From an uncultured virus (IMG/VR IMGVR_UViG_2061766007_000547) (taxonomy: Duplodnaviria > Heunggongvirae > Uroviricota > Caudoviricetes), in the IMG/VR virus record IMGVR_UViG_2061766007_000547: a stretch of 64,000 nt of DNA. One strand, given 5' to 3'. The translations under genes and the position numbers were made by a program. This document shows, piece after piece, positions 1 to 60,622 of the stretch (positions are counted from its first letter, which is position 1; each line of letters opens with the position of its first letter). The notes under the pieces were generated by a model that was not told where the DNA came from, ran no database searches, and saw nothing but the letters and a program-made list of their open reading frames with translations.

Positions 1-2
1 AA

Positions 3-914: not shown

Positions 915-929
915 TGGAGGTACAAACAT

Positions 930-2546: not shown

Positions 2547-2561
2547 TGAAAGGAGATAAAA

Positions 2562-3470: not shown

Positions 3471-5272
3471 TTTCAGTTATATTAGCCACATATAATACCG
3501 CTGATTATTTAGAGAAATGTATTAATTCTATTATTAATCAGACATACAAAGATTTAGAAATTATTATAGTGGATGATGGTTCTACAGATAATACTGCTGA
3601 GATTCTAAATGGGTTTCAGCAGAAAGACTGTAGGATTAAGGTGATCCATCAGGAAAACAAGGGACACTCTGAAGCACGAAATGTAGGTGTGGATAATGCT
3701 CATAGCGATTATTATTTCTTTATTGATTCGGATGATTATCTTCATAGACAAGCAATAGAAATATTGTGGAATAATATGCAAAAAACAGGTGCAGATATTT
3801 CTATCGGCAATACAACACGAGAAAAAGAGTTGGAAACTACTCTTGAAAATGATTATTATGTGTATACAACAATGGACGCTTTTAGTATTTTAACCGATTA
3901 TCATTCGCCGCTTAAAACACATAAACTGCCGTTTACTGCAACATGGAATAAAATCTTTAAGGCGAGTTTATTTTCTAACGTCCGCTTTCCTACTGGACAT
4001 ATAAGAGATGATAATTTTACTTGTCATCGTCTTATATATAATGCAAAAAAGATAGTTTTTACAAAAGCAAAAACATATTTCTATACTTACAGGGAAGGTT
4101 CAGTATCAAATAAAGGTCTAATCAATAAAGATTTTATGCTTGCATATAAGGATAGAATTGACTTTTTTAAAGAGAAAGGGTTAACAAAATTTCTACCTGA
4201 TACATGTTCGTATTATCTAAATGCTTGCTTAAATACATTTTATAGAATGCAAGATTATTCTATTATACAAGAGGCTAAAGAGTTTATTAAGGATAACCAG
4301 ATATATTTTCAACATCAATATCTGGGATTGAAACATAAGAAAGAGATAGAAAAAATGACAGATATTATAATTTATGTAGATCATTTATATGTTGATACTG
4401 GTATTTCTAATTGGATAAGAAATTTTTGCATGGCTTTTCACAAAGAGTATTCAATTAGTATTTTGACTCCCCTATATGTTAAAGGAAGTAAAGAAATATT
4501 TGGACAATATGTACAGTGTGATATATATGATGCTACAAAAACATATTATTGCAAAATTTTCTTGCATAATTTCTTTTATGATAAGGTGCCAGAAAATATT
4601 ATTGCTCATAATCGGTTTGTAATTTTACATTGTGATTATGGTCATATGACAAAAGAAATTCATTTTGATAAAAGATATAAATATATAGCCTTAGCAGATA
4701 TTGTAGCTAAAGGCATGAAGGAAAAATTTGGTATAGATTGTATAACGACAAGGTCTTTTATGAATCAGCACAAACCTCAGAAGGTATATCGTCTTTTATC
4801 AGCGACAAGATTACATCCAGAAAAAGGAATTGGCAGAATATTGCAATTATGTCAATTGTTTAAAGACAAAGATATATGTTTTCAATGGTTAATATTCTGT
4901 GATAGGTCACTTGCTTCATCAATGTTCAGGAGCGATTATCCAGAACTGATTTATGGTGGCTCAGTACCAAACGACACAATCATTAACTATATGGCAGACG
5001 TTGACTATGTAGTCCAGTTAACTGACTATAATGTCGAAGGCTTCTGTTATGCAGTGCATGAATCATTAAAGGTTGGCACACCAGTTATCGTAACCGATAT
5101 CCCTATCTTCAAGGATTTGGTAAAAAATGGTTACAATGGATATCGTGTACCGCTTGATATGCAGAATATTGACCTTGATAAAATCTTAAATGAAATACCA
5201 AAAGGCTTCCAGTACGATGATCACTTTGAGGAACTTAAGACAGAATGGAAAAAAATTTTTGACAATGAATAA
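3467..5272 (+). CDS. Bifunctional glycosyltransferase (GT2 + GT4 fusion)
   Basis: N-terminus has ISVILATYN, VDDGSTD, IDSDD, WNKIF; C-terminus has LSATRLHPEKG and EGFCYAVHESLKVGTPVI. Confidence 0.9.
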   Translation: MISVILATYNTADYLEKCINSIINQTYKDLEIIIVDDGSTDNTAEILNGFQQKDCRIKVIHQENKGHSEARNVGVDNAHSDYYFFIDSDDYLHRQAIEILWNNMQKTGADISIGNTTREKELETTLENDYYVYTTMDAFSILTDYHSPLKTHKLPFTATWNKIFKASLFSNVRFPTGHIRDDNFTCHRLIYNAKKIVFTKAKTYFYTYREGSVSNKGLINKDFMLAYKDRIDFFKEKGLTKFLPDTCSYYLNACLNTFYRMQDYSIIQEAKEFIKDNQIYFQHQYLGLKHKKEIEKMTDIIIYVDHLYVDTGISNWIRNFCMAFHKEYSISILTPLYVKGSKEIFGQYVQCDIYDATKTYYCKIFLHNFFYDKVPENIIAHNRFVILHCDYGHMTKEIHFDKRYKYIALADIVAKGMKEKFGIDCITTRSFMNQHKPQKVYRLLSATRLHPEKGIGRILQLCQLFKDKDICFQWLIFCDRSLASSMFRSDYPELIYGGSVPNDTIINYMADVDYVVQLTDYNVEGFCYAVHESLKVGTPVIVTDIPIFKDLVKNGYNGYRVPLDMQNIDLDKILNEIPKGFQYDDHFEELKTEWKKIFDNE

Positions 5273-5671: not shown

Positions 5672-5832
5672 GATTACACTTTGATTACAGTAACCAAATA
5701 TATATTTCAAAATGCCCATAGATCAAGGCTTTTTAACGCGTCTAATGGGATTCGAATCGTAATGGTAGAGACCAAAACGCCGTATTCCGTAGGCTTTGCG
5801 GGCATTTTACACTTGTTTACATTTGATTACAC
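5669..5832. other. Putative attP: arm-type repeats flanking a tRNA-3'-end core at 5737-5756
   Basis: TTTGATTACA(C/G) at 5669, 5680 and 5822, with degenerate copies at about 5803-5821. The core reads TTCGAAT-CCCAT-TAGACGC-G on the minus strand. Lies directly downstream of the integrase. Confidence 0.7.
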
Positions 5833-6989
5833 TTTTCGAGTCGCTCCTTAATAGAAGCAGTTTCTTCCTTATTATAATAATAGAAACGTTTGGTGGTAAG
5901 AATTTCGGTATGTCCCATTTGCTTAGTAATGATCTTGTCGCTAACGTTTGCGTCGAGAAGTTTCGTGCCGTAAGTCTTTCGTATTTTATGGAAACTTCTA
6001 TGTGGTATGTTAACTTCTCGACAGACTGCTTCTATCCTGTTGGATAACCACGCTGCTTTAATGCGGGCGCCGTCTCTCAGGAAAATATATCCGTCTTGAC
6101 TTCCTGTATATTGATACAGGGTTTTGAGGATATTTATCGCCTCGTCGGTAAGGACAATTTCACGGATGCCGTCACGACCTTTAGTGAAGTTCCGAACTTC
6201 CTCAATCCACTTACCATCAATCTTATACTTGATCTCTGTCCTCTGGACTATAAGGATATCATCATTCCAGTCGCTCCATTTAAGAGCGGACACCTCTCCT
6301 ATCCTTAGTCCCGTACTGAAGGCTAACATGATGCCAAGCCCCAGTATTTCAGGGTGATCAGATACATAGTGTTTTATCTTGTTTTCTTCTTCAGTATTGA
6401 ATACCTGTTCTTCATCTTTCATTTGTACACGTCTGAAGATTTTATTCGACAGCTGTAGTTCAGATAGGAATAGGCTGATACGTATGTCTGTAAAGCCGTG
6501 CTTTCTAGCCCAGACCATTGTACCGCTGATCAATATTCGCATATTTCCCCAGTTCTTAGCCGTCAGATTGTTATCAGATATTTTCTGCCTGATAAAGTTT
6601 TCAAGATAAAGTTCGTTAATAGTTTTAATTTCTTTGTTTTCAAGTTCAGTTCCCGATATATAACGTTTATAATCTGCTGTATATCTGTCGTAAGTTTGGC
6701 GCTGAATTTCTCCATATTCTAATTTCTCATTGATCCATGCGTCAAAGCACTCCTTAAACTTGGGCTTAGGCTCCCTGAGTATTTTTACTACTTCATCTTC
6801 TAAGGTAGCCCTGTTACTTTTGGCTATCAGCTTTCGATGTCCAGCGACTTCAACATAAGTTTTCCATCGCCCATCGGAAGCCTGCCAGATTTTTTGTTTC
6901 TCAAGAATTTTCTGTCGTATCATTTTTTCATACTCATGCTGTATGAAGCCGATATCAATTATACCACGCTCTTGAGCAAACTGCAACAA
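5817..6989 (-). CDS. Tyrosine integrase
   Basis: Catalytic motifs TGLRIGE, TKG, FHKIRKT, QMGH, RFYY; exact start uncertain. Confidence 0.93.
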   Translation of the reverse strand: MLQFAQERGIIDIGFIQHEYEKMIRQKILEKQKIWQASDGRWKTYVEVAGHRKLIAKSNRATLEDEVVKILREPKPKFKECFDAWINEKLEYGEIQRQTYDRYTADYKRYISGTELENKEIKTINELYLENFIRQKISDNNLTAKNWGNMRILISGTMVWARKHGFTDIRISLFLSELQLSNKIFRRVQMKDEEQVFNTEEENKIKHYVSDHPEILGLGIMLAFSTGLRIGEVSALKWSDWNDDILIVQRTEIKYKIDGKWIEEVRNFTKGRDGIREIVLTDEAINILKTLYQYTGSQDGYIFLRDGARIKAAWLSNRIEAVCREVNIPHRSFHKIRKTYGTKLLDANVSDKIITKQMGHTEILTTKRFYYYNKEETASIKERLEKCNQM

Positions 6990-9679: not shown

Positions 9680-10026
9680 ATTGCCTCCTTAAAATATCGG
9701 ACATTTGACAGCCATTCATAGCCATTTTTAAGGAGTGTTTTCTCTGGCATTCTCCATCCGATGTTATACAAATTATTCTGTTATTGTTACCTTGTTATAT
9801 ACATTACATACATCAATACAATATACTTTCTTTTCTTGCTCAAGCCACTCTGCATATTTATTAGCAGATTCTTCATTGATAAATACACTAACAACTGGCT
9901 CTATATCAGTATTTGGAAAATATTCTGTTACGACAAAAACATTAGGTATTTGAAAACTTGAACAGCTTATCTTCATAATCATCCTCACTTTCCTAAAATG
10001 GTTTTATTGAGTTACTTCTTTATCAA

Positions 10027-10102
10027 TGGGCGGACTTGGGTTCGAACCAAAAATTACCGCTCGATATGCGACCAGTTGTATTACCACATATACTATTCGC
10101 CT
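10027..10102 (-). tRNA. Atypical tRNA / tRNA-like RNA, anticodon not assignable
   Basis: AGGCGAA-TA-GTAT(ATGTGGTA)ATAC-A-[21-nt anticodon arm]-AATT-TTTGG(TTCGAAC)CCAAG-TCCGCCC-A; the acceptor stem has two A.C mismatches. Confidence 0.6.
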
Positions 10103-10108
10103 AACAGT

Positions 10109-10588: not shown

Positions 10589-10746
10589 GTTTTGTTACCT
10601 CCTTATTTTTCATCTTGTTATGATATGGACAAGGCTTCACCCTGTCAACATAATAATCTTCATATTCATCAAGTGTAAAGTTATTGATCATGTCGCATTT
10701 AACAGATTGATTGTGTTTACAGTTGTCGCAATCAGTTTTTCTCATA

Positions 10747-12123: not shown

Positions 12124-13956
12124 TTATATAACATTTTGTGTTTCCATATTTAATATTGAAAACTCACTGATAATCTGTTCATATTGATCATCGCGTTGTT
12201 TCCACTTATTGTTCTCGTCTTTGTACCATTTGCGATCCTGCTTGACAGAGTAAATCTTAACGATCATACCGATATCAAACAGGTTCTTTTTTGCAAACTT
12301 GATCTTAAATATTTTACCTGTTTTTAATTGATATAACTGTCCAGTCCTGCCCTGTTTATCAATAATAAAGTAACAGCTTTTTTCAAGGTTGGGAAATACT
12401 CTACTAAGAGTATTTGTAGCTTCAAATTCATACTCAGCTGCCTCAATATCATTTGCTGGTTCTGGCGTTATATCCTTAATTGCAGTTCTGGTTAGTTCAA
12501 TCTTGGCTTTTCTGTTCTTATTTTCTTTGTAGGCGTCTAATATCTTCATCAGATATTTAATCGAGCCAAATTCCGAAAAGAAATTGAGCTTTACCAGTAT
12601 CTCAATCTGACGTAAGTTAACTTTATGCTCGGTTGCCCGTGCTATCAAGTCCACAAAATCATCAAATAATTCTACACGCATAGTATAAAGATTTTCAGAT
12701 GCGGTCTTGTTCATATACTTAACACCGAACAGCCCTTTATATATGGTGTGTTGTTGAGGATCACATCGATAATCCCATGTTGATTCTCTGAATTTAATAT
12801 CGACAATATTAATGCCTAATGACTGAGCCAACGCCCTACCATTGTTAAAATCGTCCTGATTTTTTGCACATGTAAGGAATGATGTGCAATATTCAACAGG
12901 ATAGTAATGACGATAATAGCCACAAAGATATGTAAGCAAGCTATAACCTAATGCATGGTTATAATTAAACATATAACTGCTGGCGTCCTCGATAACCTTT
13001 AAGAATTTCTTTGCTTCTGCTTCAGCTATCTCACGAGGCTTGTCTGATTTAGCACAATAGCCTTCTAAAATCTTAGGCATTGCTGCTTCAATCTTTGCCA
13101 GATCTTTCTTTCCTATTGCTCGTCTGATACTATCAGCGTCAGAACCACTAAAACCGCAGATATACTGCAAGAATGCCGTAACCTGTTCCTGATAAACCAA
13201 GAAACAATAACTATCTTTAAGTAGATTGTTGATAATTTCTGAACCATTATCATTGATTTCATGCCTAAAGAGCCTATCTCTATATGAGGCGCCTCCTGGT
13301 CTTAATGCTGCATTAGTTAATGTGATATCATCAATACTATGGCAATTCATCTTTTTAAAACAGTCGGCAGCATAATCTGATTCAAACTGAAATATAGCCA
13401 ACTGATTGTTAACCATATCGTCAAATACTGCCTGATCTGTAAAATCAATTTCTTCAGCCTTAGGGAAATGCCGTCCTATCATCTGGCAAACCTTATCAAT
13501 AACACCAATTGTTTTTAAGCCCAGTATGTCATACTTGATCAATCCGATATGATGCGATTCGTCCATATCCAATGGAATGATCTCTTGTCCATCAGAACCA
13601 ATAAATTTACTGCATAGGTCTGATAATACTACAGGACTTGCTATAATGCCAGCAGGGTGTTGGGATTGTGAAACAGGAGTATCTATAATGCCGTCATAAT
13701 AATAGAAAAGATCAGGATATTTATTGCGGGCTGCCTGAGGATCACTTTCAAATTCCTCCTTAATACCCATCATATCGTCCAGTTTATATCGACAATTGGG
13801 TTTCATTTTTCTCAAGCCACGGGCGATAGTATCAATGGTGCTTTTAGATGATAATGTACCAAATGCTACAATGTAGGCAGTCTTATCAGTACCAAAACGA
13901 TTAGTGATATAATCATAAATCTTTTGACGGTCATCCTCATACCAATCTGTGTCAAT
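12124..13956 (-). CDS. dnaE: DNA polymerase III alpha subunit, exon 2
   Basis: Frame opens IDTDWYEDDRQKIY...; SQHPAGII, GLIKYDILGL, IFQFES, LVYQEQ, YMFNYNHA. Confidence 0.93.
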   Translation of the reverse strand: MDTDWYEDDRQKIYDYITNRFGTDKTAYIVAFGTLSSKSTIDTIARGLRKMKPNCRYKLDDMMGIKEEFESDPQAARNKYPDLFYYYDGIIDTPVSQSQHPAGIIASPVVLSDLCSKFIGSDGQEIIPLDMDESHHIGLIKYDILGLKTIGVIDKVCQMIGRHFPKAEEIDFTDQAVFDDMVNNQLAIFQFESDYAADCFKKMNCHSIDDITLTNAALRPGGASYRDRLFRHEINDNGSEIINNLLKDSYCFLVYQEQVTAFLQYICGFSGSDADSIRRAIGKKDLAKIEAAMPKILEGYCAKSDKPREIAEAEAKKFLKVIEDASSYMFNYNHALGYSLLTYLCGYYRHYYPVEYCTSFLTCAKNQDDFNNGRALAQSLGINIVDIKFRESTWDYRCDPQQHTIYKGLFGVKYMNKTASENLYTMRVELFDDFVDLIARATEHKVNLRQIEILVKLNFFSEFGSIKYLMKILDAYKENKNRKAKIELTRTAIKDITPEPANDIEAAEYEFEATNTLSRVFPNLEKSCYFIIDKQGRTGQLYQLKTGKIFKIKFAKKNLFDIGMIVKIYSVKQDRKWYKDENNKWKQRDDQYEQIISEFSILNMETQNVI

Positions 13957-14819
13957 CCTTTATACTCTTATTCACATAAGGGAAGTAGACTATATCTTCA
14001 TCTCGCCTTGACGAGAGGTCTGCGCTTCGGGGTAAGGAATTGCACCTTACCCCTACGTCTTTCGACTAGTCGTTTGAGTTTCTAAATGAGTTATGCTGTT
14101 TCTACAAGTTTATAACCACGATGAGTCTTATGTTTTTCTAACATTGATATTAATAATTCTAAATTATTATCTTGTATGTATTTAATAATCTCACCACGCC
14201 CTTTTAATATTGGAGATTGTGTACCATCGGGAGCAATTAAATACCATAATTTGTAATTTCTTACTGGACTCATTGTTTCATATGAACGATGTAAATTTTC
14301 TTTGTGTGTTACCCACTCAAGATTTGTATAGTGATTGTTATGTTTATTGTGATCTTTATGGTCTATTTCAGCACCATCAAAATAACCAGCAACAAAATAT
14401 TTGCCAACCAATTGATGTATCTGAAAATAAAAATATTGATTGTTTTTACAGCAAAGCATTGATAAGTATCTTTTAGGATTGTTGCGTCCTCGCTGTGCTA
14501 ACTCTCGCAATCCGCTATATCCATTACGATTAGGATTAATGCTGTATGCTTTTCCACTTTCAGTAATAGCATAATTTTCAAACCCGTCAATCACATGCCA
14601 TCGTTCTGTTATTTCTTCAAATCCCATATGCACCACCCTTTCATGATGCATAACTCATTAGCTTACCACAGGATTACCATTACTGGCTTCCCCTGTTAGC
14701 CAAGACACTAACTGTCATTTCCTACAGTTCCTTAATCGTTGTCTTGACACCCTACATTTGTAGGTTCACAGACTTTTTTACTGCATGTCACCATGCAGGG
14801 AGACTATGACACGTTGTTA
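13957..14819 (-). mobile_element. Group I self-splicing intron (863 nt) in dnaE
   Basis: 5' exon ends in U with P1 GGAGAU/GUCUCC; terminal G; P10 GUGUCA/UGACAC; P/Q CUAACAGGGGAA and AAUCCUGUG; R UCAAACGACUA; S AAGAUAUAGUC. Confidence 0.92.
14091..14627 (-). CDS. Intron-encoded NUMOD4-HNH homing endonuclease (I-HmuI-like architecture)
   Basis: ERWHVIDGFENYAITESG (NUMOD4) and IDHKDHNKHNNHYTNLEWVTHKEN (HNH). Confidence 0.9.
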   Translation of the reverse strand: MGFEEITERWHVIDGFENYAITESGKAYSINPNRNGYSGLRELAQRGRNNPKRYLSMLCCKNNQYFYFQIHQLVGKYFVAGYFDGAEIDHKDHNKHNNHYTNLEWVTHKENLHRSYETMSPVRNYKLWYLIAPDGTQSPILKGRGEIIKYIQDNNLELLISMLEKHKTHRGYKLVETA

Positions 14820-15992
14820 ATCTCCAGCTTCGACTCTGTGTTCATTACAAAATCGAGAAAAAATTGTTCGCCACTTAATAGGATCAACATCTGTAATATT
14901 AGCTATATAAGCTACTATACTGCCCGATACTGATCCTCTTGAAAATCCAGTAGCTATATGCTGATCTCTCGCCCATGTCATCATTTCCGACATGAATAAC
15001 ATAAAGCCTATCATATTGACTTTCTTAAAGACAGCCATTTCCTCGTTAATTCTATTCAGATATTCTTTATCATCTGGTATGACGCCTCGCTCAAGCTTGT
15101 CTTGATAGTTTTTATGGATAACGTCCCAAAGGACTTCTTCATCTTTATCGCCATATAAATATGGATATTTGTCATGGGTGTCAATGACAATCTCCTCACA
15201 GCTATCAGCCATAACATTAGTATTGTCAATGGCTTCAAGGATAGTGTCTTTTGACATAACTCCTTGTGCCAAGAATGCCTCAACAAGCTGATCATAAGTT
15301 TTAAAGGTTAGATCACAGGCATTTTCAGGATCGCCCCATTCTGATTCAGTCTTGCCATATTGAAGCATTGTTCTGCACTCAGCTTTGTATTGATTGAGGC
15401 TATGAGTATCTGTACCAGCTATCAAAGGTTTGTGATATATAGTTGAATAGCCACAGAGCAACTTGGTATATTCAATATTATCTTCAAATGTATGATATTG
15501 TACTTCATAATAATCATACTTTTTTAATAAAGCGTCCATAATCTCTGGATTGTCTTTAAGTTTCCAGAGTGGTGATTGAATACAAGCTGATATCTTAATG
15601 ATATTGTCACTGATATTTAAAAACTCATCAACTGATATTCTTGGCTTGTAGTAGAAATGGTCAGGCTGGCTGGCTAGAAAACAAAGATTATTAAGCTCTG
15701 CAAAGCCCTTCATATTCTTAGCTATCAGGACAGTGTGCATATTATCTCGTATCTTTTGGTTGTGTGATATAGTCACATAACATTCGATGCCGTGAAGATA
15801 CTTGATGTTGTACTGCTTACACAAATTATATCGTAAGCCCCAATTATACAGATTTCCATGGTTCGATATACATATGGCTTTCATGCCCAGTTCAGAAGCT
15901 TTCTTGATGTAATCTTCTGGAGACGTACAGGAATCGAGAAGGCTATAATAGTCGTGAGAGTGGTACATCACGAAATTAGCCACCATCATCAC
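14820..15992 (-). CDS. dnaE: DNA polymerase III alpha subunit, exon 1 (PHP domain to palm)
   Basis: HSHDYYSLLD, HGIECY, GTDTH, GFSRGSVSGS, FSRFCN..R..GD. Confidence 0.93.
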
Positions 15993-26828: not shown

Positions 26829-27458
26829 TCAAAACGAGTAACTTTCATGCTTTACCTCCTTATCCTCGCTTTCCTGTAGCTCAATCATCCTTGCACCACA
26901 ATTAGGGCAATAGTTAATCTTCTTAATAGTATCGCTCCAACCCTCTTTAATAACCTTTTTATGGCATTCAGAGCAGTAATAACCGCTGTTTGAGCATTCA
27001 TCAAGTGCTATCCAATGCCCTATCTTTTCCTTTGGCATGACGGAGGGTAAATTGATTATGTCCGACATAATAACTCCTGTAGCTCTACCTCTTGATATGC
27101 AACATCTTTCATCACTTATTGCCCTTGCCAATTCATCAATTAAATCATTGACTGCTTCTCGGCTTATGCAATCTTCACAATATTGTGCTTTTGGTTTAAA
27201 GTTCAGATGTTCCTCATCTTCAAAACACCCATTACAAGCCTCATCATTTGCTCCGTTGTCATAATATGCACACTTATCACAATCTCTACTTATTACATCT
27301 TCACAAGGCTGTTGTTTTGGTGTGACGGATGGCAACTCTGCTATTTCAGCGTCTATAAGTTCAATTTTCCTTCTATCCTCGTCATATAAATAATCCGATA
27401 ATAACATTGCCATCAAATCATGTACAGCTTCTCGGCTTATGCAATCTTCTTTTGTCAT
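26829..27458 (-). CDS. Phage protein with CISREA repeats and C-terminal zinc ribbon
   Basis: EDCISREA-like repeats (x3); CSEC...YCPNCGARM. Confidence 0.75.
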   Translation of the reverse strand: MTKEDCISREAVHDLMAMLLSDYLYDEDRRKIELIDAEIAELPSVTPKQQPCEDVISRDCDKCAYYDNGANDEACNGCFEDEEHLNFKPKAQYCEDCISREAVNDLIDELARAISDERCCISRGRATGVIMSDIINLPSVMPKEKIGHWIALDECSNSGYYCSECHKKVIKEGWSDTIKKINYCPNCGARMIELQESEDKEVKHESYSF

Positions 27459-27904
27459 TCGCTCACCTCGTTTTCCTGTGGCTTATATGGTTCTGGTAAA
27501 GGCATCCATGCGATTATATCATCACCTTGTAAAAATATTTCTCCTGTATAAAAGTCCGTCATTACATCATTATATTTTGTGGCAACGACATACCTTTTGC
27601 TTTCTTCTGGCAACCTCTCACTAACAGGAATCCACCCTGTCTTTTCCTTTGGTGTGACGGAAGGTAAAGCTCTTATGTTATCACGCATCTGCCAGAATAT
27701 TGTTGTACTCATATCTTGTGCATATTTTGCTTGTAACGACAACATCGCTTCTCGACTTATGCAATCTCCACAAGGTTCTTGTTCTAACCATTTTGAAATA
27801 ATAGCAATCGAATTTCTCCATTTATTCCCATCAAATATTTTGTAGCCATTTACTTCTACAAAACCTCTGTTTATTAGTATATTTTTTGCTTCTTCAATCG
27901 TCAT
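27455..27904 (-). CDS. DUF551-domain phage protein
   Basis: WIPVSERLPE...IIAWMPLPEPY. Confidence 0.8.
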   Translation of the reverse strand: MTIEEAKNILINRGFVEVNGYKIFDGNKWRNSIAIISKWLEQEPCGDCISREAMLSLQAKYAQDMSTTIFWQMRDNIRALPSVTPKEKTGWIPVSERLPEESKRYVVATKYNDVMTDFYTGEIFLQGDDIIAWMPLPEPYKPQENEVSE

Positions 27905-42293: not shown

Positions 42294-42322
42294 GCATTTA
42301 TCCTCCTTAATTTTCATCTTGT

Positions 42323-43024
42323 TTAGTGAACTTTTAAAATCAAATGTGTATCTTTCTTTAATGTCCAACAACCAGTTCCATTAGCAGCACATTCACTACA
42401 GTTGCCGCCACAAAATGTCGTTGCACATCCTTGAGGAGCCGTTGTCTTTCCGTCCTCATAAAGTACATGACTACAGGGCAAATGATGCGGATTATCCATT
42501 GGCATATCAAACCATGCCGACATGACTGTATGAACGTTACTAGGAAATGTTTCAGTATCAAGGAAAGCGTTAAGTTCTTTATAATTCTTTGTAAAGAACA
42601 TGATCATCGTATCAGGATTGTTTTCGCCCAGCTTCTTTATATAAGTAAAATCTCTATAAGCAAAATCACCGCCGACATTAAGTCTTAATTCTTTTACCTT
42701 GTTAACTTTAATTTGCGCGTCAATCTCGCCCCAGAACCTTGCAAGATCAGCTTCATGAATAGCTGAGTTTCTTGCTCTGCTGTTAATAACATTAGGATAT
42801 CGCATGTCACTTCTTAAATCGTAACAGTGCCACATGCATTCCTTACAGTTAGCACAATCAACAACGGGAAGTAATGATACCGTCCAGCAATGTATGCCAG
42901 TCTTTCGATTTCCCTTTTGTAATTTTACATGCTGATTTGCAACGTCGCTAAGCATTTTCCGCTTTGCATCGCCTAACATTTGTGCTCTTGCTAAAACTTT
43001 TTCTTTGCTCATAAAACTTGTCAT
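42323..43024 (-). CDS. Gp88-like Cys-rich protein
   Basis: GNRKTG, SL.PVVDC.NC..C...CY, R.NVGGD, C.GNC.EC. Confidence 0.7.
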   Translation of the reverse strand: MTSFMSKEKVLARAQMLGDAKRKMLSDVANQHVKLQKGNRKTGIHCWTVSLLPVVDCANCKECMWHCYDLRSDMRYPNVINSRARNSAIHEADLARFWGEIDAQIKVNKVKELRLNVGGDFAYRDFTYIKKLGENNPDTMIMFFTKNYKELNAFLDTETFPSNVHTVMSAWFDMPMDNPHHLPCSHVLYEDGKTTAPQGCATTFCGGNCSECAANGTGCWTLKKDTHLILKVH

Positions 43025-49859: not shown

Positions 49860-49904
49860 GTTTAATTCCTCCTTTTAATCAGGAGGGGCATTACGCCCCT
49901 CATT

Positions 49905-50840
49905 TTATGCGCTAAGTAATATTCCAACTGTCTTATCGAGCAAATCGTTTCCGTCCAGTGCTGACTTGAAATGATTTTCCTCATAGTTTGCGGTACGTCT
50001 TAATGGTATGATATGACTTGTGGTGTCAGCTACAGCCTGCACAAATCTTGCACCAGTCATCTCCCTATCCTTAAGATCAGGTGCATTGTAGAACCTGTAC
50101 AGAATATCATCTGATACTCTCTTCAGATTATCTCGCTGCTTAACCGATAAATCTTCTCCGATAGGAATAATCTTCTGAACAAGACTGTAAACTGTAGTGT
50201 CTGACATCTTTACCTTGTATAAGTCCTCAAACGTCTGCTTCTGAGCTTCGATATAAGCGTTTGCAAACTGTAAGGTTTCCATTGCATCGTCAAGCTTATC
50301 GGCTATGCTTCCCGTATGTCTTGCTGACCATACTCGCTTTGCCTGTTTTAAAGCAAAGTTAAGTGTATTCTGACAGACAACTCTAATGGGACTCATTGTT
50401 ACCCTTACAGCGCCACTGCCGTCATGAGTATTAGTGAATACCAGATAAGGTTCAATCTCATCGTCTAATATCTTGATCGTTTCAGGCATTCTTGCCAACA
50501 GCCAGATTGTCTTTCCGTCTTTCAACGAGCCTGCTGTTTCATATGTAACGCCCTCACCAAGCAGAGCGTCAGTGAAAGCAAACGCTTCGCTATTCTGAAC
50601 GATCTTATATCTATCACCTACGATACCTAACGGCTTTCCGTCACTGCTTCTTACGTTTGCATAACTACCAACGATCTTAGTTCCGTCTGCTAAGAATATG
50701 GGCTGCTGATGCACCTCCCAATCTAATCCTGCATAACGAATTGCATCCGCGCTTGTCGGTGCGCTTTCTACTGAAACGCCCAACTGATGCCAGGGCTTTT
50801 CTCTTCCTACAAAAAACATTGATTCTACGTTTGCTGCCAT
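49905..50840 (-). CDS. DUF932 / LGT_TIGR03299 phage-plasmid protein
   Basis: MAANVESMF..REKPWH.LG, AGLDWEV, ETAGSL, NTHDGS, PIRVVCQNTL. Confidence 0.9.
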   Translation of the reverse strand: MAANVESMFFVGREKPWHQLGVSVESAPTSADAIRYAGLDWEVHQQPIFLADGTKIVGSYANVRSSDGKPLGIVGDRYKIVQNSEAFAFTDALLGEGVTYETAGSLKDGKTIWLLARMPETIKILDDEIEPYLVFTNTHDGSGAVRVTMSPIRVVCQNTLNFALKQAKRVWSARHTGSIADKLDDAMETLQFANAYIEAQKQTFEDLYKVKMSDTTVYSLVQKIIPIGEDLSVKQRDNLKRVSDDILYRFYNAPDLKDREMTGARFVQAVADTTSHIIPLRRTANYEENHFKSALDGNDLLDKTVGILLSA

Positions 50841-50906
50841 AATAATTATCCTCCTTAAATTTGTGTTTGTGTTATAGTGATATCAAAGGGGCAACCGCCC
50901 CTCTGA

Positions 50907-51722
50907 TTAGAACTCGTATGCTCTCCATGAGAGCACATCTGCCTCAGGAACTTCTGAGCTATTAATTTCCTTTACCATCTGTGTAAGCTCCTGCTTAGTA
51001 ATATCAGTTGCCTTAGACATAACAATACATTCATGAATTGAACTGGGGATTACATAATAACCTTCAGGGAACATCGCGCCCAATTCATTTCGCATGGTGA
51101 TCGCTCCGATTGCTGCGTACATCTTTGTGTTGCTTGTGATAACATACTGAGGCAATGCATCGGCGGGAGTTGGCGGTAACATATCGGGATCAATGCCCAT
51201 GCTAGCCATAGATGCCTTGATCACATCCAGCATATTAAGAATACTAATCTGTACGTTAGCCTCGGTTGCTTCCATTGCGTCTGCGAACAGGATACATTCA
51301 GGCACTCCCCACATATCAACTAATGACTGATTTACTTTTGCAGCCATGCCTCTGTCAAGCTGGATATAAGGCACCAGAATAAGATCATCAAAGCCATAGT
51401 CTGCGGCTGACCTGAATACATCTGCCTTTGTTTTTTCGTTATATAACCTTAACCTGAGATTTCCTTTGACAACGTTATAATCTGTCATAGCGTCAATGCT
51501 GATGTTGGGCAGAGGCTGAGCTTTGATCTCCTCTATTTCTTTTACCGCCTGATCTACTGTATATCCCTCATCATACATATCCTCTATGTGAATCGATGGA
51601 GATATGTTGGCTCCTACATTTACCACTATACACTTCCGCTTAACGCCATTTGCCTTTTCCGCATCCTTGACTATTCCGTCGACCTGTTCTGCTACTGCAT
51701 TGATAAAATCTTCTTTAGTCAT
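50907..51722 (-). CDS. DUF5688-like protein
   Basis: K.NGVK, ISPSI, YYVIPSSIHE, MVKEIN..EV...DVLS...Y. Confidence 0.8.
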   Translation of the reverse strand: MTKEDFINAVAEQVDGIVKDAEKANGVKRKCIVVNVGANISPSIHIEDMYDEGYTVDQAVKEIEEIKAQPLPNISIDAMTDYNVVKGNLRLRLYNEKTKADVFRSAADYGFDDLILVPYIQLDRGMAAKVNQSLVDMWGVPECILFADAMEATEANVQISILNMLDVIKASMASMGIDPDMLPPTPADALPQYVITSNTKMYAAIGAITMRNELGAMFPEGYYVIPSSIHECIVMSKATDITKQELTQMVKEINSSEVPEADVLSWRAYEF

Positions 51723-51751
51723 GTTTTTATCCTCCTTAATTTTCCGTTTGT

Positions 51752-51825
51752 TAGAGTGCGTTTATACTCCCTAGCCACTACGCCCATGTGATATTTGCCG
51801 TTCACATGCCTTAAGAGACGGCTTG
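51752..51825 (-). ncRNA. Structured intergenic motif, copy 1
   Basis: Conserved with 52724-52794; covarying stem. Confidence 0.65.
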
Positions 51826-52723
51826 GTAATTTATTCTTCGTCTTTCTTAGGACTGAAGAATTTTTCGATATCTTCCTTGAACTGCTCAACAAGCTGTTCT
51901 TCTGTTCTCGGATATATATTGCAGTCTCCGTAGTTTCTGTCGTATCCAAGACAAACCAGAACTTTCTTTCCGATTAGCTCGTCAGTTATACTTTCGATGC
52001 CCGCCATATCATATGCCTTAATAAACATCTTGACAGTATGCAGATCGTCTGCGTTCTTGATTTCAATGACTGCCAGCATAAACTCTTCGCTTCCATATCC
52101 GAAGCGTTCCCATATGCCGCACTCAGCGAATGGCTCTCCGATCATCAGCTGCTTAAGATCATGCAGTATAACTCCCCTTGCAGTTTCCTCATACTTCTTG
52201 CATTCCTCTTCTGTTGCAAAAACATGCCCATCATCTGCCTCATATCCTGTGATAATTTCTTCTGTCTTTGTGTACTTAAGTGTTTTCATGCTTTAGCCTC
52301 CTTTGTTATGCTACGTTTGACCATTTGCCGTTTTCAAAATGAAGAACAGCTTCGTACTCACTACGCTCAAAGATTTCGATGCAACCTGAACTTTCTATAT
52401 CATATTTTTCACATTCTGCCTTAATTGCTTCAAGATCTGTGGTGGAAGTTATCGGAGTCATATACGTAGGCTCGCCTTTTTCACGCTGGACTGCATTTCT
52501 CCATACTACAATTCCATATTCAGTCGTAAGAGTATAAGCATGTCCGTCAAAATAATAGGTATCTCCATTTTTGGCTGTTTTTAACCATTTGTTCATGTTA
52601 GATAAGTAACTTCTCATTGTCTTTTTTGTAATAAAGTTACAGCAGCAATATCCTCTTAATAGTTCTTCAAATGCGTCTTTGATTTTCTGTTTTGTCATGT
52701 TATCCCTCCTTTAAAATATTGGC

Positions 52724-52794
52724 TAGAGTGCATTTATACTCCCTAGGCGCCACCCCCATACAGCTTCCGTCTGTATGCCTTAAGAGACGGCTTG
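52724..52794 (-). ncRNA. Structured intergenic motif, copy 2
   Basis: Conserved with 51752-51825; covarying stem. Confidence 0.65.
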
Positions 52795-53071
52795 ATGACC
52801 TGTCAGTTCTCGTCCAGACCTTCGGGACACTGCTCTACAGCGTGAATTTCCTTTTCACATTCGTCACATATCCACTCTCCGTTATCGCCTGCTACAAGTG
52901 CTATACAGTCCTGACATCTTATTTGTTTGCTGTCCATATTATCTCCTTCCAACGGACACTCCTCGTCCGTTATGTTATGTATTTCGTCCATACATTCAGT
53001 GCAGAGCCAGTTGCCCTCTTCGTCCTGCTCACAATAGCTGCACTTTTTACATCTGACCATTTCCTTTGTGG

Positions 53072-54856
53072 TCATGACACTCCCTCCTCTTCTTCATTTT
53101 CTTCCAGTTCGTCGGCATGCTCTTCATCATAGTCGTATGTAAACCACCTCTCTTTGATGTCGCTCCAGTATGCATTCTCACGCTGCATCCATACGCAATA
53201 ACCATCTTCATCGTAAGCACATATATTACCATCGGCTTTTGCATTATACTCTGAAACATAACAAAAGCCCTCTTCTGTACGTACTGCTAAGCTGTCGTCG
53301 TAATAATAACATTCGTCATAATCATCAACAAAATAATCTTCCGTTGATGACCATTCATCTGCGTCTGACATATAATGAACACCATCACGCTCTGCACAAC
53401 TTTCGCAACAATACCAATATCCTGTGGCTCGATCATAAACGGCATCGTTGTTATCTTCTATACTAAACGAATCGCCGCAACGATTACACTCTTCTAACTC
53501 CTCACTACCGTCGGCATATCCCTCATCGCGACAATATTCGCATACGAGGTATTCATTCTCTGAATGTTCATCTCCGCAAACGGGACAGATTGGACGATGT
53601 CCTACATATATTGTCGTATCCGTATTTTCCGCCTTGTTAATCGACACATTTACATCATCATAACACTCATAATCCCTGTAATGTGTTGAACCGCTGGCGG
53701 TTGTAATATAACTGCTGGTTTCTCCGCTTCCCTTTTTAAGCACCCAGTTGTTTGGAATGTCCCAGCACTGAGCGACTATATCCTGCATAATCGCTCTGAA
53801 CTGTGTAGCGATTCCCTTTTCTCCGCCGTCTCTGCCGTCTGGATATACGCGGCTTTCCACAAGGAGATTTCCGTTGGGGCTAACATAGAAGCAACATCTA
53901 CGGATCTTGTCTGCTTTCCACATCTGCTTTGTATTATCATATTCCTTTTCAACAGTGTAGAAAATCATTGTTGATTCATCAAGGGCATATGATAATGTGC
54001 CTGAACAGTAGCAGCCACCATAATTTCCAGGTGCCTTTCTTCTGTTCTTTTTGTCGATTGTATGACACGAAGCGTAATTCCTGCCAAATGCCATTGTAAG
54101 ATAATCAAGTACGTTAATGCTGATTATCGTATAGGTTTCGTACTTTAACGGGTTGAAACCATCAAAGAGGATAGCAGACTTACGGTTCCATTCTGCATGC
54201 TGGTCTAAGCCAATCTTCTTTGCGATTGCGTTGACAACCTTTGAGCACTTCTGCCCGTTGACGCAGTTAACATCGGGGAAATATTTCTTGACTTCTTCCC
54301 TTACGTCGTCTGTAACAAGCTGTTCACTTGTATCGCGCATTACACAAATGACCTTATATAAATTTTCATATGTCATTATGTAATCATATTCCTCCTGTGT
54401 TACAGGATAGCTACGATAGAACTTTTTATCGCGTTCAAGTTCTTGAATTTTCGCATAGACTTCCAAATACTCAGCATAAGCCTCACCACGCTGAAGCAAT
54501 ACATCATAAGTCTGTTCTTCTGCGTAGGAAAGCATCAGCCGCTTCTTCCTCCAATAGCTCAGTTCGCTATGGAGCTTATTGTTCTGCTGAGTTGTTGATA
54601 ACAGCTGGCACTTTGTCTGAGTAACTTCAAACAACCAGTCAAGGAATGTTTCGATACGTGTCTTATCGAAATCCCTTGAATATTCTGCCTTGAGCACGAT
54701 CGCCTGCTGTTCCTCGTCCCAGTATGGCGATTTTCTCAGATGTTCTCTGAGGTTATTTTTTGCCTCCCATGTTTCTGTGTCGATTTTTTCTACACCTTTA
54801 TCGGTGTATGCGTGATCGTAATCACCCAATAAATAAGCAATGTCTGTTTCGTACAT
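53072..54856 (-). CDS. Large hypothetical protein with SCHTID domain and Cys/acidic repeats (paralogue B)
   Basis: DYLTMAFG..ASCHTID, GCYCSGT.SY.LD, RVYPDGRD, CxxC arrays. Confidence 0.85.
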   Translation of the reverse strand: MYETDIAYLLGDYDHAYTDKGVEKIDTETWEAKNNLREHLRKSPYWDEEQQAIVLKAEYSRDFDKTRIETFLDWLFEVTQTKCQLLSTTQQNNKLHSELSYWRKKRLMLSYAEEQTYDVLLQRGEAYAEYLEVYAKIQELERDKKFYRSYPVTQEEYDYIMTYENLYKVICVMRDTSEQLVTDDVREEVKKYFPDVNCVNGQKCSKVVNAIAKKIGLDQHAEWNRKSAILFDGFNPLKYETYTIISINVLDYLTMAFGRNYASCHTIDKKNRRKAPGNYGGCYCSGTLSYALDESTMIFYTVEKEYDNTKQMWKADKIRRCCFYVSPNGNLLVESRVYPDGRDGGEKGIATQFRAIMQDIVAQCWDIPNNWVLKKGSGETSSYITTASGSTHYRDYECYDDVNVSINKAENTDTTIYVGHRPICPVCGDEHSENEYLVCEYCRDEGYADGSEELEECNRCGDSFSIEDNNDAVYDRATGYWYCCESCAERDGVHYMSDADEWSSTEDYFVDDYDECYYYDDSLAVRTEEGFCYVSEYNAKADGNICAYDEDGYCVWMQRENAYWSDIKERWFTYDYDEEHADELEENEEEEGVS

Positions 54857-57944: not shown

Positions 57945-57973
57945 ATTATAGACGTTTAATACATTTTTGTCAA
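57945..57973 (-). promoter_or_regulatory. Consensus sigma-A promoter
   Basis: Perfect TTGACA-17-TATAAT. Confidence 0.85.
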
Positions 57974-58631
57974 GGCGTATTTTTCGCCTTGTTATCTATT
58001 AGCAACTTTACATTAGCAAGAATTTCTTCGTTGCCTTGCTTTAACTTTTTAATGCCAGTCATTAGACGTTCGTTCTGCTCTGACAGCTTCTGCAAGCGCT
58101 GTTCTGACAATTCACATAGAATTGCCAGATCATTTACCAACCCGTCTATATCCTGTTGTCCCTTGACGTAGCGCATTAGAAACTCCGCTGCAAGTCCTGG
58201 GTGTCTGGCTGCGATTTCCTTTGCCTTTGTTCTGTTCATACAATTACCTCCTTTTCAAGCTGCGCTATACGCTCTTCTCTTACATCGCAGAGAATAGCCA
58301 AACAGTCAATTACATCAATAATTCTCACTTTTGGATCACGTGTGAGACTGCTAATAATGCTCGCTGCAAGTCCATGATGCTTGTCAGCGATTGCTTTTGC
58401 GTCTGTTCTTTTCATGACGTCACCTCTCTTTTACCACCACTGACCTGTGAATGCCAGTGAATCTATATCTACATTTTTATCACAGATAATATCATCTATA
58501 CCTTCTGTTGCTTCGCGATATGTATCCGCTGTGAAGATCATTTCCCTGTTATCATACACCTCATAGTGTCCATATATTTGGACTATGGTGTATCCCTCAT
58601 ATTTATATGTTCTGCCCATAACTATCCCTCC

Positions 58632-60053: not shown

Positions 60054-60622
60054 TCATACCTCTACCTCCTCCGTTATAATGGCGATGTCAAGTATATCCC
60101 GCAAAAAACTTGCCGCTTCTTCTAATTGCTCACTATCGTCACCGTCTACTAATGTTGACAGATAATATAAAAGTTCTATTGCATTTTGAGTTTGATCATA
60201 TTTTTCGCGCGTCAATTCAATTTCATTATAATTATCATAATCATCATCATAATANNNNNNNNNNNNNNNNNNNNNNNNNNNNNNNNNNNNNNNNNNNNNN
60301 NNNCGCAATCATCATCGTTGCAGCTATGCTTTTCAATATCCTGATCAATATTATATTTGCCGTTAGCATAATAAAAGAACCATGCTTTACCTAATGAAAT
60401 TCCTATGGTAATCGGAGCATAAGTAAAACGCTCTCCATGCGCTTCTGTTATACCGCTAGCGCAATAATCATATTTGCCGTCGTATAAGCTAATAGGCAAA
60501 TCTGGTCTGCCTTTGAGTGCCTCATAGATATCAGGTAGTATAGGCATAAAATCATCTTTGCCTATTAAAAATGGATCGAGAAATTCCTTGCATGCTTTTA
60601 ATAATTCTAAACCTTCGTTCAT
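60054..60622 (-). CDS. Hypothetical protein spanning an assembly gap (N at 60255-60303)
   Basis: Asp/Tyr-rich low-complexity codons on both sides of the gap; probably one gene. Confidence 0.55.

What the first reader, a model, noticed from the sequence alone, without database searches (positions are those of the whole stretch)
51752..52794. Two copies of an unrecognised, covarying, probably pseudoknotted RNA motif
Seen (minus strand): CAAGCCGTCTCTTAAGG-[stem]-GGSGTRGYGS-CTAGGGAGTATAAAYGCACTCTA occurs in two intergenic gaps 1 kb apart, each ending shortly before an RBS. The stem changes compensatorily (CATGTGA/TCACATG vs CATACAG/CTGTATG). Both loops begin ACGG, complementary to the upstream CCGT. 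GTAGTG/CGCAC vs GTGGCG/TGCAC also keeps pairing, and TCTCT can pair with AGGGA. I cannot match it to hammerhead, twister, pistol, hatchet or HDV cores. Known: self-cleaving ribozymes and RAGATH motifs are enriched among such small phage genes. Inference: a new ribozyme or processing element, or a put-like antiterminator for the long early operon.
Basis: partly seen in the sequence, partly recalled or inferred. Interest (0 to 1): 0.78.

Follow-up and report, generated by a model that had tools for sequence, protein, structure and literature searches.

The report
New pseudoknotted RNA in rumen phage operon
Two copies of an ~80-base RNA element that folds into a pseudoknot plus two small hairpins sit between genes of a rumen prophage operon; it matches no catalogued RNA family and most likely controls expression of the gene that follows it.

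Summary
Both copies are real (minus strand, 52796-52719 and 51827-51747), and each conserved block occurs only twice in the window. I found two more copies elsewhere: one in a metagenome contig (L001) and one in a viral record (L016). Across the four sequences, 91 of 92 base-pair cells in five helices are standard pairs. Ten of 23 pairs changed on both sides. G-U pairs point to the gene-sense strand as the folded one. Rfam 15 has no match.

The element fills the gap between a stop codon and the next ribosome-binding site. It lies 5-6 kb inside an operon that starts at a consensus promoter. In 3 of 4 cases it precedes a DUF5688 gene. It is rare: no other copy turned up in IMG/VR, the GTDB species genomes, or the phage and plasmid collections.

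Best reading (0.45): a new cis-acting intercistronic RNA that controls the downstream gene after transcription. A new self-cleaving ribozyme, a riboswitch, an antiterminator or a recoding/pausing signal are not excluded. Function is untested.

The parts
52719..52796 (-). Motif copy A (78 nt). S1 5' strand 52791-52787, loop L1 CUCUUAAGG 52786-52778, S2 52777-52771 with 52763-52757, S1 3' strand 52770-52766, mini-hairpin P3 52756-52745, hairpin P4 52742-52725.
   Evidence: sequence. (model R1, built without this copy, scores it 68.7 bits, E 1.3e-14). (pair counts).
51747..51827 (-). Motif copy B (81 nt). S1 5' strand 51822-51818, L1 51817-51809, S2 51808-51802 with 51791-51785, S1 3' strand 51801-51797, A-rich L3 51796-51792, P3 51784-51773, P4 51770-51753.
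   Evidence: (108.4 bits; this copy is part of the model). Natural variants at 51759, 51760 and 51826 in contigs of other samples.
52803..53075 (-). 90-aa double zinc-ribbon ORF. Its TGA stop lies 6 nt before copy A, in the same frame as the UAG at the foot of P4.
   Evidence: (weak match to PF18912, E 5.3e-05, 23.4 bits, below the cut-off of 27)..
52306..52698 (-). 130-aa ORF of no known family, the first gene after copy A. It is absent from a relative in run X4.
   Evidence: (a contig joins 52296 to 52705, skipping 408 nt).
51831..52289 (-). 152-aa ORF of no known family. Its TAA stop lies 3 nt before copy B.
50907..51722 (-). DUF5688 gene (271 aa), the first gene after copy B. Its relatives follow copies C and D.
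   Evidence: PF18941, E 3.5e-42..
49905..50840 (-). DUF932 gene (311 aa), next in the operon.
   Evidence: PF06067, E 3.6e-51. (82% identical to the L001 gene).
57945..57973 (-). Consensus sigma-70-type promoter (TTGACA-17-TATAAT, 12 of 12), the likely start of the operon that holds both copies.
   Evidence: This is a consensus match only; no transcript data.

Best explanation
The element is an ~80-nt structured segment of the mRNA, on the gene-sense (minus) strand. Its fold is a classical H-type pseudoknot. Helix S1 (5 bp) pairs the 5' flank RCCGY with the first five loop bases RCGGN. Helix S2 (7 bp) follows with no base between the two helices. Loop 1, CUCUUAAGG, is invariant, and loop 3 is A-rich. 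A 3-bp mini-hairpin P3 with hexaloop GUNGYG follows directly, then an invariant 5-bp hairpin P4 (GGAGU/ACUCU, loop AUAAAYRC). The P3 and P4 loops can form three further pairs. The element fills the gap between the stop codon of one gene and the ribosome-binding site of the next, 5-6 kb inside a long operon. I think it acts in cis and after transcription on the downstream cistron. It would set the rate of translation initiation and/or protect the downstream mRNA. The trigger would most likely be a protein partner, in the manner of the phage T4 gene 32 operator, or the ribosome that terminates just upstream. Shown here: the copies, their placement, the helices and their covariation, the strand, the absence from Rfam, and conservation above that of the neighbouring gene. 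Inferred: that it regulates, that it acts on translation or stability, and what triggers it.
For: Structure: 91 of 92 cells pair, and 10 of 23 pairs changed on both sides. By helix this is S2 6/7, S1 2/5, P3 2/3, the loop-loop contact 0/3 (2 one-sided) and P4 0/5 (invariant). For the percentage paired and the covariation score, 0 of 500 shuffles reach the observed value. Sliding the partners gives 26-51% paired. In columns 6-75, every variable column except loop 3 and column 49 belongs to a pair.

Strand: invariant G-U pairs at 44-55 and 58-75, plus U-G at 51-69, would be C-A mismatches on the other strand.

Constraint: motif identity between copies B-C, C-D and B-D is 89, 88 and 77%. The DNA of the adjoining DUF5688 gene is 65, 58 and 56% identical, and its protein 55-37%.

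Natural variants: contigs from two other studies carry columns 68-69 as UA with the P3 loop unchanged. That gives U51-A69 and G52-U68, which still pair.

Placement: the element starts 6, 3, 0 and 3 nt after the upstream stop and ends 14-17 nt before the ribosome-binding site in 4 of 4 copies. Three of 4 copies precede DUF5688 genes even though the upstream genes differ. A 12/12 promoter lies 5-6 kb upstream.

Geometry: loop lengths of 9, 0 and 3-5 nt suit an H-type pseudoknot (established knowledge, recalled).

Possible toggle: loop 1 CUCUU and the P4 3' strand ACUCU can each pair with the ribosome-binding site AGGAG or with the internal GGGAG, at similar energies of -4.1 to -4.9 kcal/mol. A toggle is therefore possible.

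Precedent: the T4 gene 32 operator is a 5' pseudoknot followed by an unstructured stretch that contains the ribosome-binding site, in an intercistronic region (PMC535899, passages read).
Against: Only four distinct sequences exist. C and D share an identical 3' half, A and B come from one genome, and the alignment was fitted to a model that contains S2 and P4. The S1 covariation rests on one sequence (D); my rough estimate of the chance probability is about 0.02. No helix that masks the ribosome-binding site shows covariation, so the toggle is a paper model. Whole-element folding energies are unremarkable (z -0.89 and -1.13). No RNA data exist. No partner is identified: the DUF5688 model is confident (pLDDT 93.6) but has no informative fold match (best Z 5.0 over 71 residues). 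Copy A precedes unrelated genes, which weakens a simple autoregulation story. A compact fold with many invariant unpaired bases would suit a ribozyme or a ligand aptamer equally well.
Confidence: 0.45

Rival explanations
1. It is a new class of small self-cleaving ribozyme, or a dedicated processing site. It would cut the polycistronic mRNA between cistrons and leave a structured 5' end on the downstream message.
For: The fold is compact and rich in pseudoknot-type contacts: 23 candidate pairs in 81 nt with two crossing interactions. About 25 unpaired bases are invariant. There are two copies 1 kb apart inside a phage operon. A relative keeps both copies with only one gene between them. Known small ribozymes are common among phage genes and often occur in clusters (recalled).
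Against: No hammerhead, twister, twister-sister, pistol, hatchet, HDV or other Rfam model matches, even at E <= 10. New ribozyme classes are far rarer than new cis-regulatory motifs (recalled base rate). The association with one gene family in 3 of 4 cases is more typical of a regulator. No cleavage site can be proposed from sequence.
Confidence: 0.15
2. It is a small-molecule or ion riboswitch aptamer that controls the downstream cistron.
For: It has the same structural features as many pseudoknot aptamers, with invariant loop and junction bases and a position just upstream of a ribosome-binding site.
Against: No Rfam riboswitch model matches. It sits in the interior of an operon and not in a 5' leader. 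The downstream genes have no metabolic or transport annotation. Its distribution is very narrow: 0 hits in the GTDB species genomes with the two-block pattern. No expression platform shows covariation.
Confidence: 0.1
3. It is a signal read by the ribosome that is finishing the upstream gene. The pseudoknot would pause the terminating ribosome, or promote stop-codon read-through or termination-reinitiation.
For: S1 begins 11, 8, 5 and 8 nt after the stop codon, close to the 5-9 nt spacing of viral recoding pseudoknots (recalled). The knot has the zero-length junction and A-rich loop 3 typical of such knots (recalled). In 4 of 4 copies the upstream frame, if read through, stays open and ends at the UAG in columns 55-57. 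The chance that all four share one phase is about 1/27 (my calculation).
Against: Two of the 4 stops are UAA, the least leaky stop codon (recalled). Four unrelated upstream proteins would all receive the same tail. Of the 10 base differences between C and D in that frame, 8 form 4 compensatory RNA pairs, and 5 of the 7 changed codons change the amino acid. So the selection is on RNA, not on a peptide. No slippery heptamer lies at the right distance.
Confidence: 0.08
4. It is a processive antitermination RNA (nut- or put-like) that modifies RNA polymerase for the rest of the operon.
For: It lies in a long operon. Loop 1 and its flank read GUCUCUUA (GCCUCUUA in D), against lambda boxA CGCUCUUA, followed by a hairpin (PMC2724277 passages). 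GC-rich hairpins follow the DUF5688 and DUF932 genes.
Against: Only 6 of 8 boxA positions match. The G at position 2, which is changed in the defective boxA5 mutant, is missing. The hairpin loop is 7-10 nt and engaged in the pseudoknot, unlike a boxB loop. The downstream hairpins lack U-tracts on the minus strand. The two copies lie in tandem in one operon, not one behind each early promoter. No N-like protein was identified.
Confidence: 0.07
5. It is a DNA-level element: a promoter, a recombination site, or a cassette boundary of the kind seen as promoter-stem-loops in T4-type phages.
For: The two direct copies flank a two-gene cassette. Gene content between the copies varies among relatives. 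A TATAAA lies in the P4 loop.
Against: No sigma-70-like -35/-10 pair falls on the motif on the minus strand. The region has 12 promoter-like sites against 11.5 expected. The one observed gene loss has its joint at the ribosome-binding-site microhomology, not in the motif. Covariation in four helices, including a pseudoknot, together with strand-specific G-U pairs, is not expected of duplex DNA.
Confidence: 0.05

Closest known systems
Phage T4 / RB69 gene 32 translational operator (PMC535899; passages read)
   Same: Both are phage intercistronic RNAs with a small H-type pseudoknot on the 5' side, followed by a less structured A-rich stretch that carries the ribosome-binding site of the next gene. 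In T4 the knot abuts or overlaps the end of the upstream ORF. It works as a nucleation site for a protein that represses its own translation.
   Different: There is no sequence similarity. Here two further hairpins follow the knot, and no UUAAA/UAAA repeats were noted. The downstream protein is DUF5688, of unknown function with no fold match, not a single-strand-binding protein. One copy precedes unrelated genes. Binding is untested.
Small self-cleaving ribozymes with pseudoknots (twister, pistol, hatchet, HDV-like; Rfam models)
   Same: Similar size (50-90 nt), several short helices tied by pseudoknots, many invariant unpaired bases, and occurrence among small phage genes, sometimes in several copies (recalled).
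   Different: None of the Rfam models matches. The order of helices here is: 5' flank pairs with hairpin loop, then two hairpins. From memory, this differs from those classes. No activity data exist.
Viral recoding pseudoknots (stop-codon read-through, -1 frameshift); recalled, not checked in a paper here
   Same: An H-type knot with stacked helices and an A-rich loop 3, starting 5-11 nt after a codon at which the ribosome must act. The upstream frame is phased in 4 of 4 copies.
   Different: The stops include UAA. No slippery site is present, no conserved extension peptide is encoded, and the element is followed by a separate gene with its own ribosome-binding site.
Lambda nut (boxA-spacer-boxB) and HK022 put antitermination RNAs (boxA data from PMC2724277; put recalled)
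   Same: A short CU-rich single-stranded word next to a hairpin in early phage transcripts, with two copies per phage.
   Different: BoxA matches at 6 of 8 positions without the critical G. The hairpin loop is not boxB-like. The copies lie in tandem inside one operon.
H-type pseudoknot riboswitch aptamers (preQ1, SAM-II/V, fluoride, guanidine-III; Rfam)
   Same: A small pseudoknot close to a ribosome-binding site.
   Different: No model matches. The element lies in the interior of an operon, has no metabolic gene context, and in the collections scanned here was found in only 3 records.

Membership tests
Any Rfam 15 family | Covariance-model score at or above the family's gathering score | tested here: not met
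   0 matches of 4227 families over the whole window; at E <= 10 over 51600-52950 there was one match, IS009 at 17.6 bits against a gathering score of 117, inside a coding region and not on the motif.
H-type RNA pseudoknot (structural class) | Two helices in crossing order S1a-S2a-S1b-S2b, each supported by covariation | tested here: met
   S2 has 6 of 7 pairs changed on both sides with 28 of 28 cells paired. S1 has 2 of 5 pairs changed on both sides with 19 of 20 cells paired. The S1 changes all come from copy D.
H-type RNA pseudoknot (structural class) | Loop lengths compatible with the helix lengths | tested here: met
   Loop 1 is 9 nt over a 7-bp S2, the junction is 0 nt, and loop 3 is 5 nt over a 5-bp S1 (3 nt over 4 bp in copy A). 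Read from alignment A7. The feasibility rule is recalled.
Gene 32-type autogenous translational operator | Pseudoknot 5' of an unstructured stretch that contains the ribosome-binding site of the regulated gene | tested here: met
   14-17 nt of A-rich sequence lie between the element and the ribosome-binding site in 4 of 4 copies. The definition comes from PMC535899.
Gene 32-type autogenous translational operator | The downstream gene product binds the operator RNA | not testable with these tools
   The DUF5688 model has pLDDT 93.6. Foldseek finds no match at E <= 0.001. The best VIA Z is 5.0 over residues 1-72, and profile E values against PDB sequences are >= 0.0095.
Known self-cleaving ribozyme classes | Match to the class consensus (Rfam models) | tested here: not met
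   none matched, even at E <= 10 with permissive filters.
Self-cleaving ribozyme (function) | Site-specific self-scission | not testable with these tools
   This needs an in vitro transcription and cleavage assay.
Lambda-type nut site | BoxA word CGCUCUUA (rrn: UGCUCUUUA) | tested here: not met
   The motif has GUCUCUUA (GCCUCUUA in D), 6 of 8, without the G at position 2. A change of that G is the boxA5 mutation (PMC2724277 Table 1 and text).
Lambda-type nut site | BoxB: short stem with a free 5-nt loop bound by an N protein | tested here: not met
   The loop is 7-10 nt and its first 5 bases pair with the 5' flank. No N-like gene was sought.
Programmed read-through / frameshift signal | Knot 5-9 nt after the recoding site, with a downstream frame that encodes a conserved product | tested here: inconclusive
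   The spacers are 11, 8, 5 and 8 nt, and the frame is phased in 4 of 4 copies. However, 5 of the 7 codons changed between C and D alter the amino acid, 2 of 4 stops are UAA, and no slippery site is seen.
Promoter-stem-loop cassette boundary / sigma-70 promoter | -35 and -10 hexamers at 16-18 nt | tested here: not met
   no minus-strand site falls on either copy. Only a 9/12 site on the opposite strand overlaps copy A, and copy B has none.

The most novel reading that the evidence does not exclude
The element is a new class of catalytic or ligand-sensing RNA. It would be a compact fold in which a coaxial S1-S2-P3 stack is locked to P4 by a loop-loop contact, and it would cleave itself (or bind a small molecule) to separate and stabilise the distal cistrons of a phage operon.
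Probability: 0.2. Interest if true: 0.9.

Novelty: new variant of a known kind. Interest (0 to 1): 0.6.

Why it matters
Phage genomes from the rumen and gut are full of intergenic sequence with no assigned role. This 80-nt element has base-pair covariation in four helices from only four sequences. It is more conserved than the gene beside it and is absent from Rfam. If it is a regulator, it gives a handle on how long phage operons tune distal genes, and on the unknown DUF5688/DUF932 module that also occurs on Butyrivibrio plasmids. If it cleaves itself or binds a ligand, it would be a new RNA class. It is small enough for direct biochemical and structural work.

Tried and rejected
- **Outer helix:** pairing the 5' block (GCCG) with the G-rich segment appeared in single-sequence folds. 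It is not conserved in C and D, and that segment is explained better by the P3 mini-hairpin.
- **Leader peptide:** an AUG in the P4 loop opens a 12-codon frame ending at the next start codon, but only in copy A. B, C and D have ACG and the variants have AUA.
- **Intrinsic terminator:** no U-tract follows S2, and one search lists no minus-strand terminator on the motif.
- **Phage-polymerase promoter:** a T7-type resemblance around UAGGGAG was recalled from memory. The bases upstream of it are the variable ones, so I dropped it.
- **G-quadruplex:** the G-runs are not conserved.
- **More copies:**
  - Patterns in viral contigs gave 0. The 16-mer of block 1 gave 1 chance hit in a coding region (L015).
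  - The two-block pattern in genome contigs gave 0.
  - blastn of the motif against phages and plasmids at E <= 10 gave 0. blastn of 4 kb of the region against phages gave 0.
  - Single-protein locus scans gave 0. The DUF5688 alignment in genome contigs gave 0 relatives among 299 candidate stretches.
  - Covariance models over 15 loci and 12 viral records found only copy D. One 14-bit partial hit in G006 lies in what looks like coding sequence.
- **Whole genome:** no genome is held for the window, so copies outside the window could not be sought.
- **RNA evidence:** no RNA holder is listed among the 13 runs. Contigs cannot show transcript ends.
- **DUF5688 function:** no informative fold or sequence match.
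- **Literature:** 0 papers hold 'DUF5688'. 0 hold 'DUF932' together with 'structured RNA'. The 12 listed of 13 papers with 'DUF932' were not about RNA, judged from titles and abstract starts only. The listing for 'rumen / phage / novel RNA motif / pseudoknot' gave nothing that describes this motif (listing only).
- **Earlier notes of this scan:** none.

Full report
**1. The observation**

Read on the minus strand, the two gaps 52802-52699 and 51830-51723 each hold the same element.
- The 17-mer CAAGCCGTCTCTTAAGG and the 23-mer CTAGGGAGTATAAAYGCACTCTA each occur exactly twice in the 64-kb window, even with 3 mismatches allowed. Shuffles give 0.08 and 0.00 expected.
- A direct-repeat scan finds no third copy. 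The other repeat families shown are short and mostly overlap ribosome-binding-site leaders.
- A covariance model built without copy A finds A at 68.7 bits and B at 108.4 bits. The next best hit in the window scores 11.2 bits (E 0.78), with filters off.

**2. What the window is**

- Bases 1-5272 carry glycosyltransferase genes on the plus strand.
- An integrase gene follows (5817-6989). After it comes a long run of minus-strand genes: a DNA polymerase III alpha gene split around an HNH endonuclease ORF, a DnaB-like helicase, a DNA methylase, two more tyrosine-recombinase-like genes, and many small ORFs.
- It therefore looks like a large prophage or related integrated element. No whole genome is held for it.
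- DNA runs that hold the stretch are labelled bovine gut and gut metagenomes. The only plasmid relatives of its DUF5688 protein are on Butyrivibrio plasmids, at 24-28% identity.

The local gene order on the minus strand is:
1. a 12/12 consensus promoter at 57973-57945
2. a small ORF
3. a 585-aa ORF
4. a 330-aa peptidase-like ORF (phrog_4191)
5. a 594-aa ORF
6. a 90-aa zinc-ribbon ORF
7. copy A
8. a 130-aa ORF
9. a 152-aa ORF
10. copy B
11. DUF5688
12. DUF932

The element is thus 5-6 kb inside an operon, not in a 5' leader.

**3. Relatives elsewhere**

- A two-block pattern found one metagenome contig, L001. Its copy C lies between a 94-aa ORF and a DUF5688 gene that is 55% identical to the window's. 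A 59-aa ORF and a DUF932 gene (82% identical) follow.
- The 18-mer of block 2 found one IMG/VR record, L016. Its copy D lies between a peptidase-like gene (49% identical to the window's) and a DUF5688 gene (37% identical).
- Nothing else was found. The full list of scans is under Tried and rejected.
- Contigs of four other runs, laid at >= 80% likeness, added three things:
  - One relative joins 52296 to 52705. It therefore lacks the 130-aa gene but keeps copy A, the 152-aa gene and copy B.
  - Variant letters occur at 51759, 51760 and 51826.
  - Loose ends show D-like copies in two further samples.

**4. Structure**

I aligned the four copies to the model (A7, 81 columns). The helices are:
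- **S2:** columns 20-26 with 37-43. Six of 7 pairs changed on both sides and none is broken.
- **S1:** columns 6-10 with 27-31. Copy D has ACCGC/GCGGU where B and C have GCCGU/ACGGC, so two pairs are compensated. Copy A has one G-A mismatch at the end.
- **P3:** Pair 45-54 is G-C in A and B and C-G in C and D. Pair 46-53 is G-C in A and C-G in the rest. The loop is GUNGYG.
- **P4:** columns 58-62 with 71-75, invariant.
- **Loop-loop contact:** three loop bases of P3 (50-52) can pair with three loop bases of P4 (68-70). The pairs are C-G/G-U in A and U-G/G-C in B, C and D. The field variants with UA at 68-69 and an unchanged P3 loop give U-A/G-U.

Altogether 91 of 92 cells are standard pairs and 10 of 23 pairs changed on both sides. 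For the percentage paired and the covariation score, 0 of 500 shuffles reach the observed value. Sliding the partners gives 26-51% paired.

Three further points follow from the alignment.
- S1 and S2 abut with no base between them, and P3 starts right after S2, so the three could stack into one rod.
- Loop 3 is A-rich (AAAUA, UAAAA, AAG).
- G-U pairs at 44-55, 58-75 and 51-69 mark the gene-sense strand as the one that folds.

Caveats:
- There are only four sequences, and two of them share their 3' half.
- The alignment was fitted to S2 and P4.
- The tool's own text says that related sequences can beat shuffles without any structure.
- The three-pair loop contact rests on transitions, which often preserve pairing by wobble.

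**5. Constraint**

The element is 89% (B-C), 88% (C-D) and 77% (B-D) identical. The DNA of the gene that follows it is 65, 58 and 56% identical over the same comparisons. The 80 nt before the element are unalignable. Almost all differences inside the element are paired changes or lie in loop 3.

**6. Placement**

- The element starts 6, 3, 0 and 3 nt after the stop codon of four unrelated upstream ORFs.
- It ends 14-17 nt before the ribosome-binding site.
- S1 starts 11, 8, 5 and 8 nt after the stop.
- In all four copies the upstream frame, if read on, stays open and ends at the UAG in columns 55-57. The chance of equal phase is about 1/27. I cannot explain this.
- The codon changes between C and D are mostly non-synonymous and are accounted for by RNA pairing, so a conserved peptide is unlikely.

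**7. What it is not**

- It matches no Rfam family.
- It is not a sigma-70 promoter or an intrinsic terminator.
- It is not a convincing boxA: 6 of 8 positions match, without the critical G (PMC2724277).
- ARAGORN lists no tRNA or tmRNA there.

**8. Mechanism**

I commit to a cis-acting post-transcriptional element that acts on the downstream cistron (0.45).
- **Shown:** a conserved, strand-specific, pseudoknotted fold wedged between a stop codon and a ribosome-binding site inside an operon, tied in 3 of 4 cases to one gene family.
- **Inferred:** it sets translation initiation and/or shields the downstream mRNA, and a protein or the terminating ribosome is the trigger.
- **Precedent:** the T4 gene 32 operator (PMC535899).
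- **A possible toggle exists on paper:** loop 1 CUCUU and the P4 strand ACUCU can each pair with the internal GGGAG or with the real ribosome-binding site at -4.1 to -4.9 kcal/mol. In constrained folds of A, B and C, loop 1 pairs with the ribosome-binding site. No covariation supports this.

The rivals are a new ribozyme or processing site (0.15), a riboswitch (0.10), a ribosome pausing or recoding signal (0.08), antitermination (0.07) and a DNA-level element (0.05). The evidence for and against each is in its own section.

**9. Novelty and verdict**

The searches listed under Tried and rejected found no description in the literature held here and no Rfam family. It is a new RNA motif of a familiar general kind, a small pseudoknotted mRNA element of a phage. 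It has unusually clean covariation for so few sequences, and its function is unknown. Interest 0.6. It would rank much higher if it proves catalytic or ligand-binding.

Noticed in passing
window 12124-15992 (-): The DNA polymerase III alpha gene is in two ORFs: 14817-15992 with the PHP and N-terminal part, and 12124-13815 with the rest. A 186-aa HNH/NUMOD4 endonuclease ORF (14091-14651) lies between them, flanked by gaps of 165 and 275 nt. It looks like a homing-endonuclease insertion or an intron. No group I intron model reached the Rfam threshold.
   Followed up: no
window 52296-52705; read laying: A 733-nt contig of run X4 joins 52296 to 52705, skipping 408 nt that hold the whole 130-aa ORF. 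Eight bases fit either side, in the two ribosome-binding-site regions. This is a single-gene gain or loss by recombination at ribosome-binding-site microhomology.
   Followed up: partly
window 52803-52805, 51831-51833; L001 2105-2107; L016 339-341: The stop codons of four unrelated upstream ORFs are all in one phase with the element (6, 3, 0 and 3 nt before column 1). That frame ends at the invariant UAG in columns 55-57. The chance is about 1/27. Unexplained.
   Followed up: partly
window 57945-57973 (-): A perfect TTGACA-17-TATAAT promoter-like site lies next to a hairpin at 57971-57991. A small hydrophobic ORF follows, then the 585-aa gene. This is the likely start of the operon.
   Followed up: partly
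window 50841-50906 and 49883-49901: GC-rich hairpins (GGGGC..GCCCC type) sit directly after the stop codons of DUF5688 and DUF932. Similar hairpins follow DUF932 in L002, L003 and L004. On the minus strand they lack a clear U-tract.
   Followed up: no
window 10026-10103 (-): ARAGORN calls a 78-nt tRNA-Asp with the unusual anticodon AUC.
   Followed up: no
window 60255-60303: A run of 49 N (masked or unresolved) inside the minus-strand gene array.
   Followed up: no
L003 6889-7221: A 333-nt gap without an ORF in the related viral record, downstream of DUF932. It looks GC-rich and may be structured. I did not scan it against Rfam.
   Followed up: no
window 27018-27770: Two sets of 36-44-nt direct repeats, three copies each at 273-332-nt spacing, run across the adjacent ORFs 26829-27458 and 27455-27904 (families D2, D5 and D16). 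This suggests a repeated protein module.
   Followed up: no
window, 7 sites (e.g. 42302-42323, 10598-10619, 51731-51752): A shared leader of the form AACAAGATGAAAATTAAGGAGG (minus strand) precedes seven genes, including the DUF5688 gene just after copy B (family D1).
   Followed up: no
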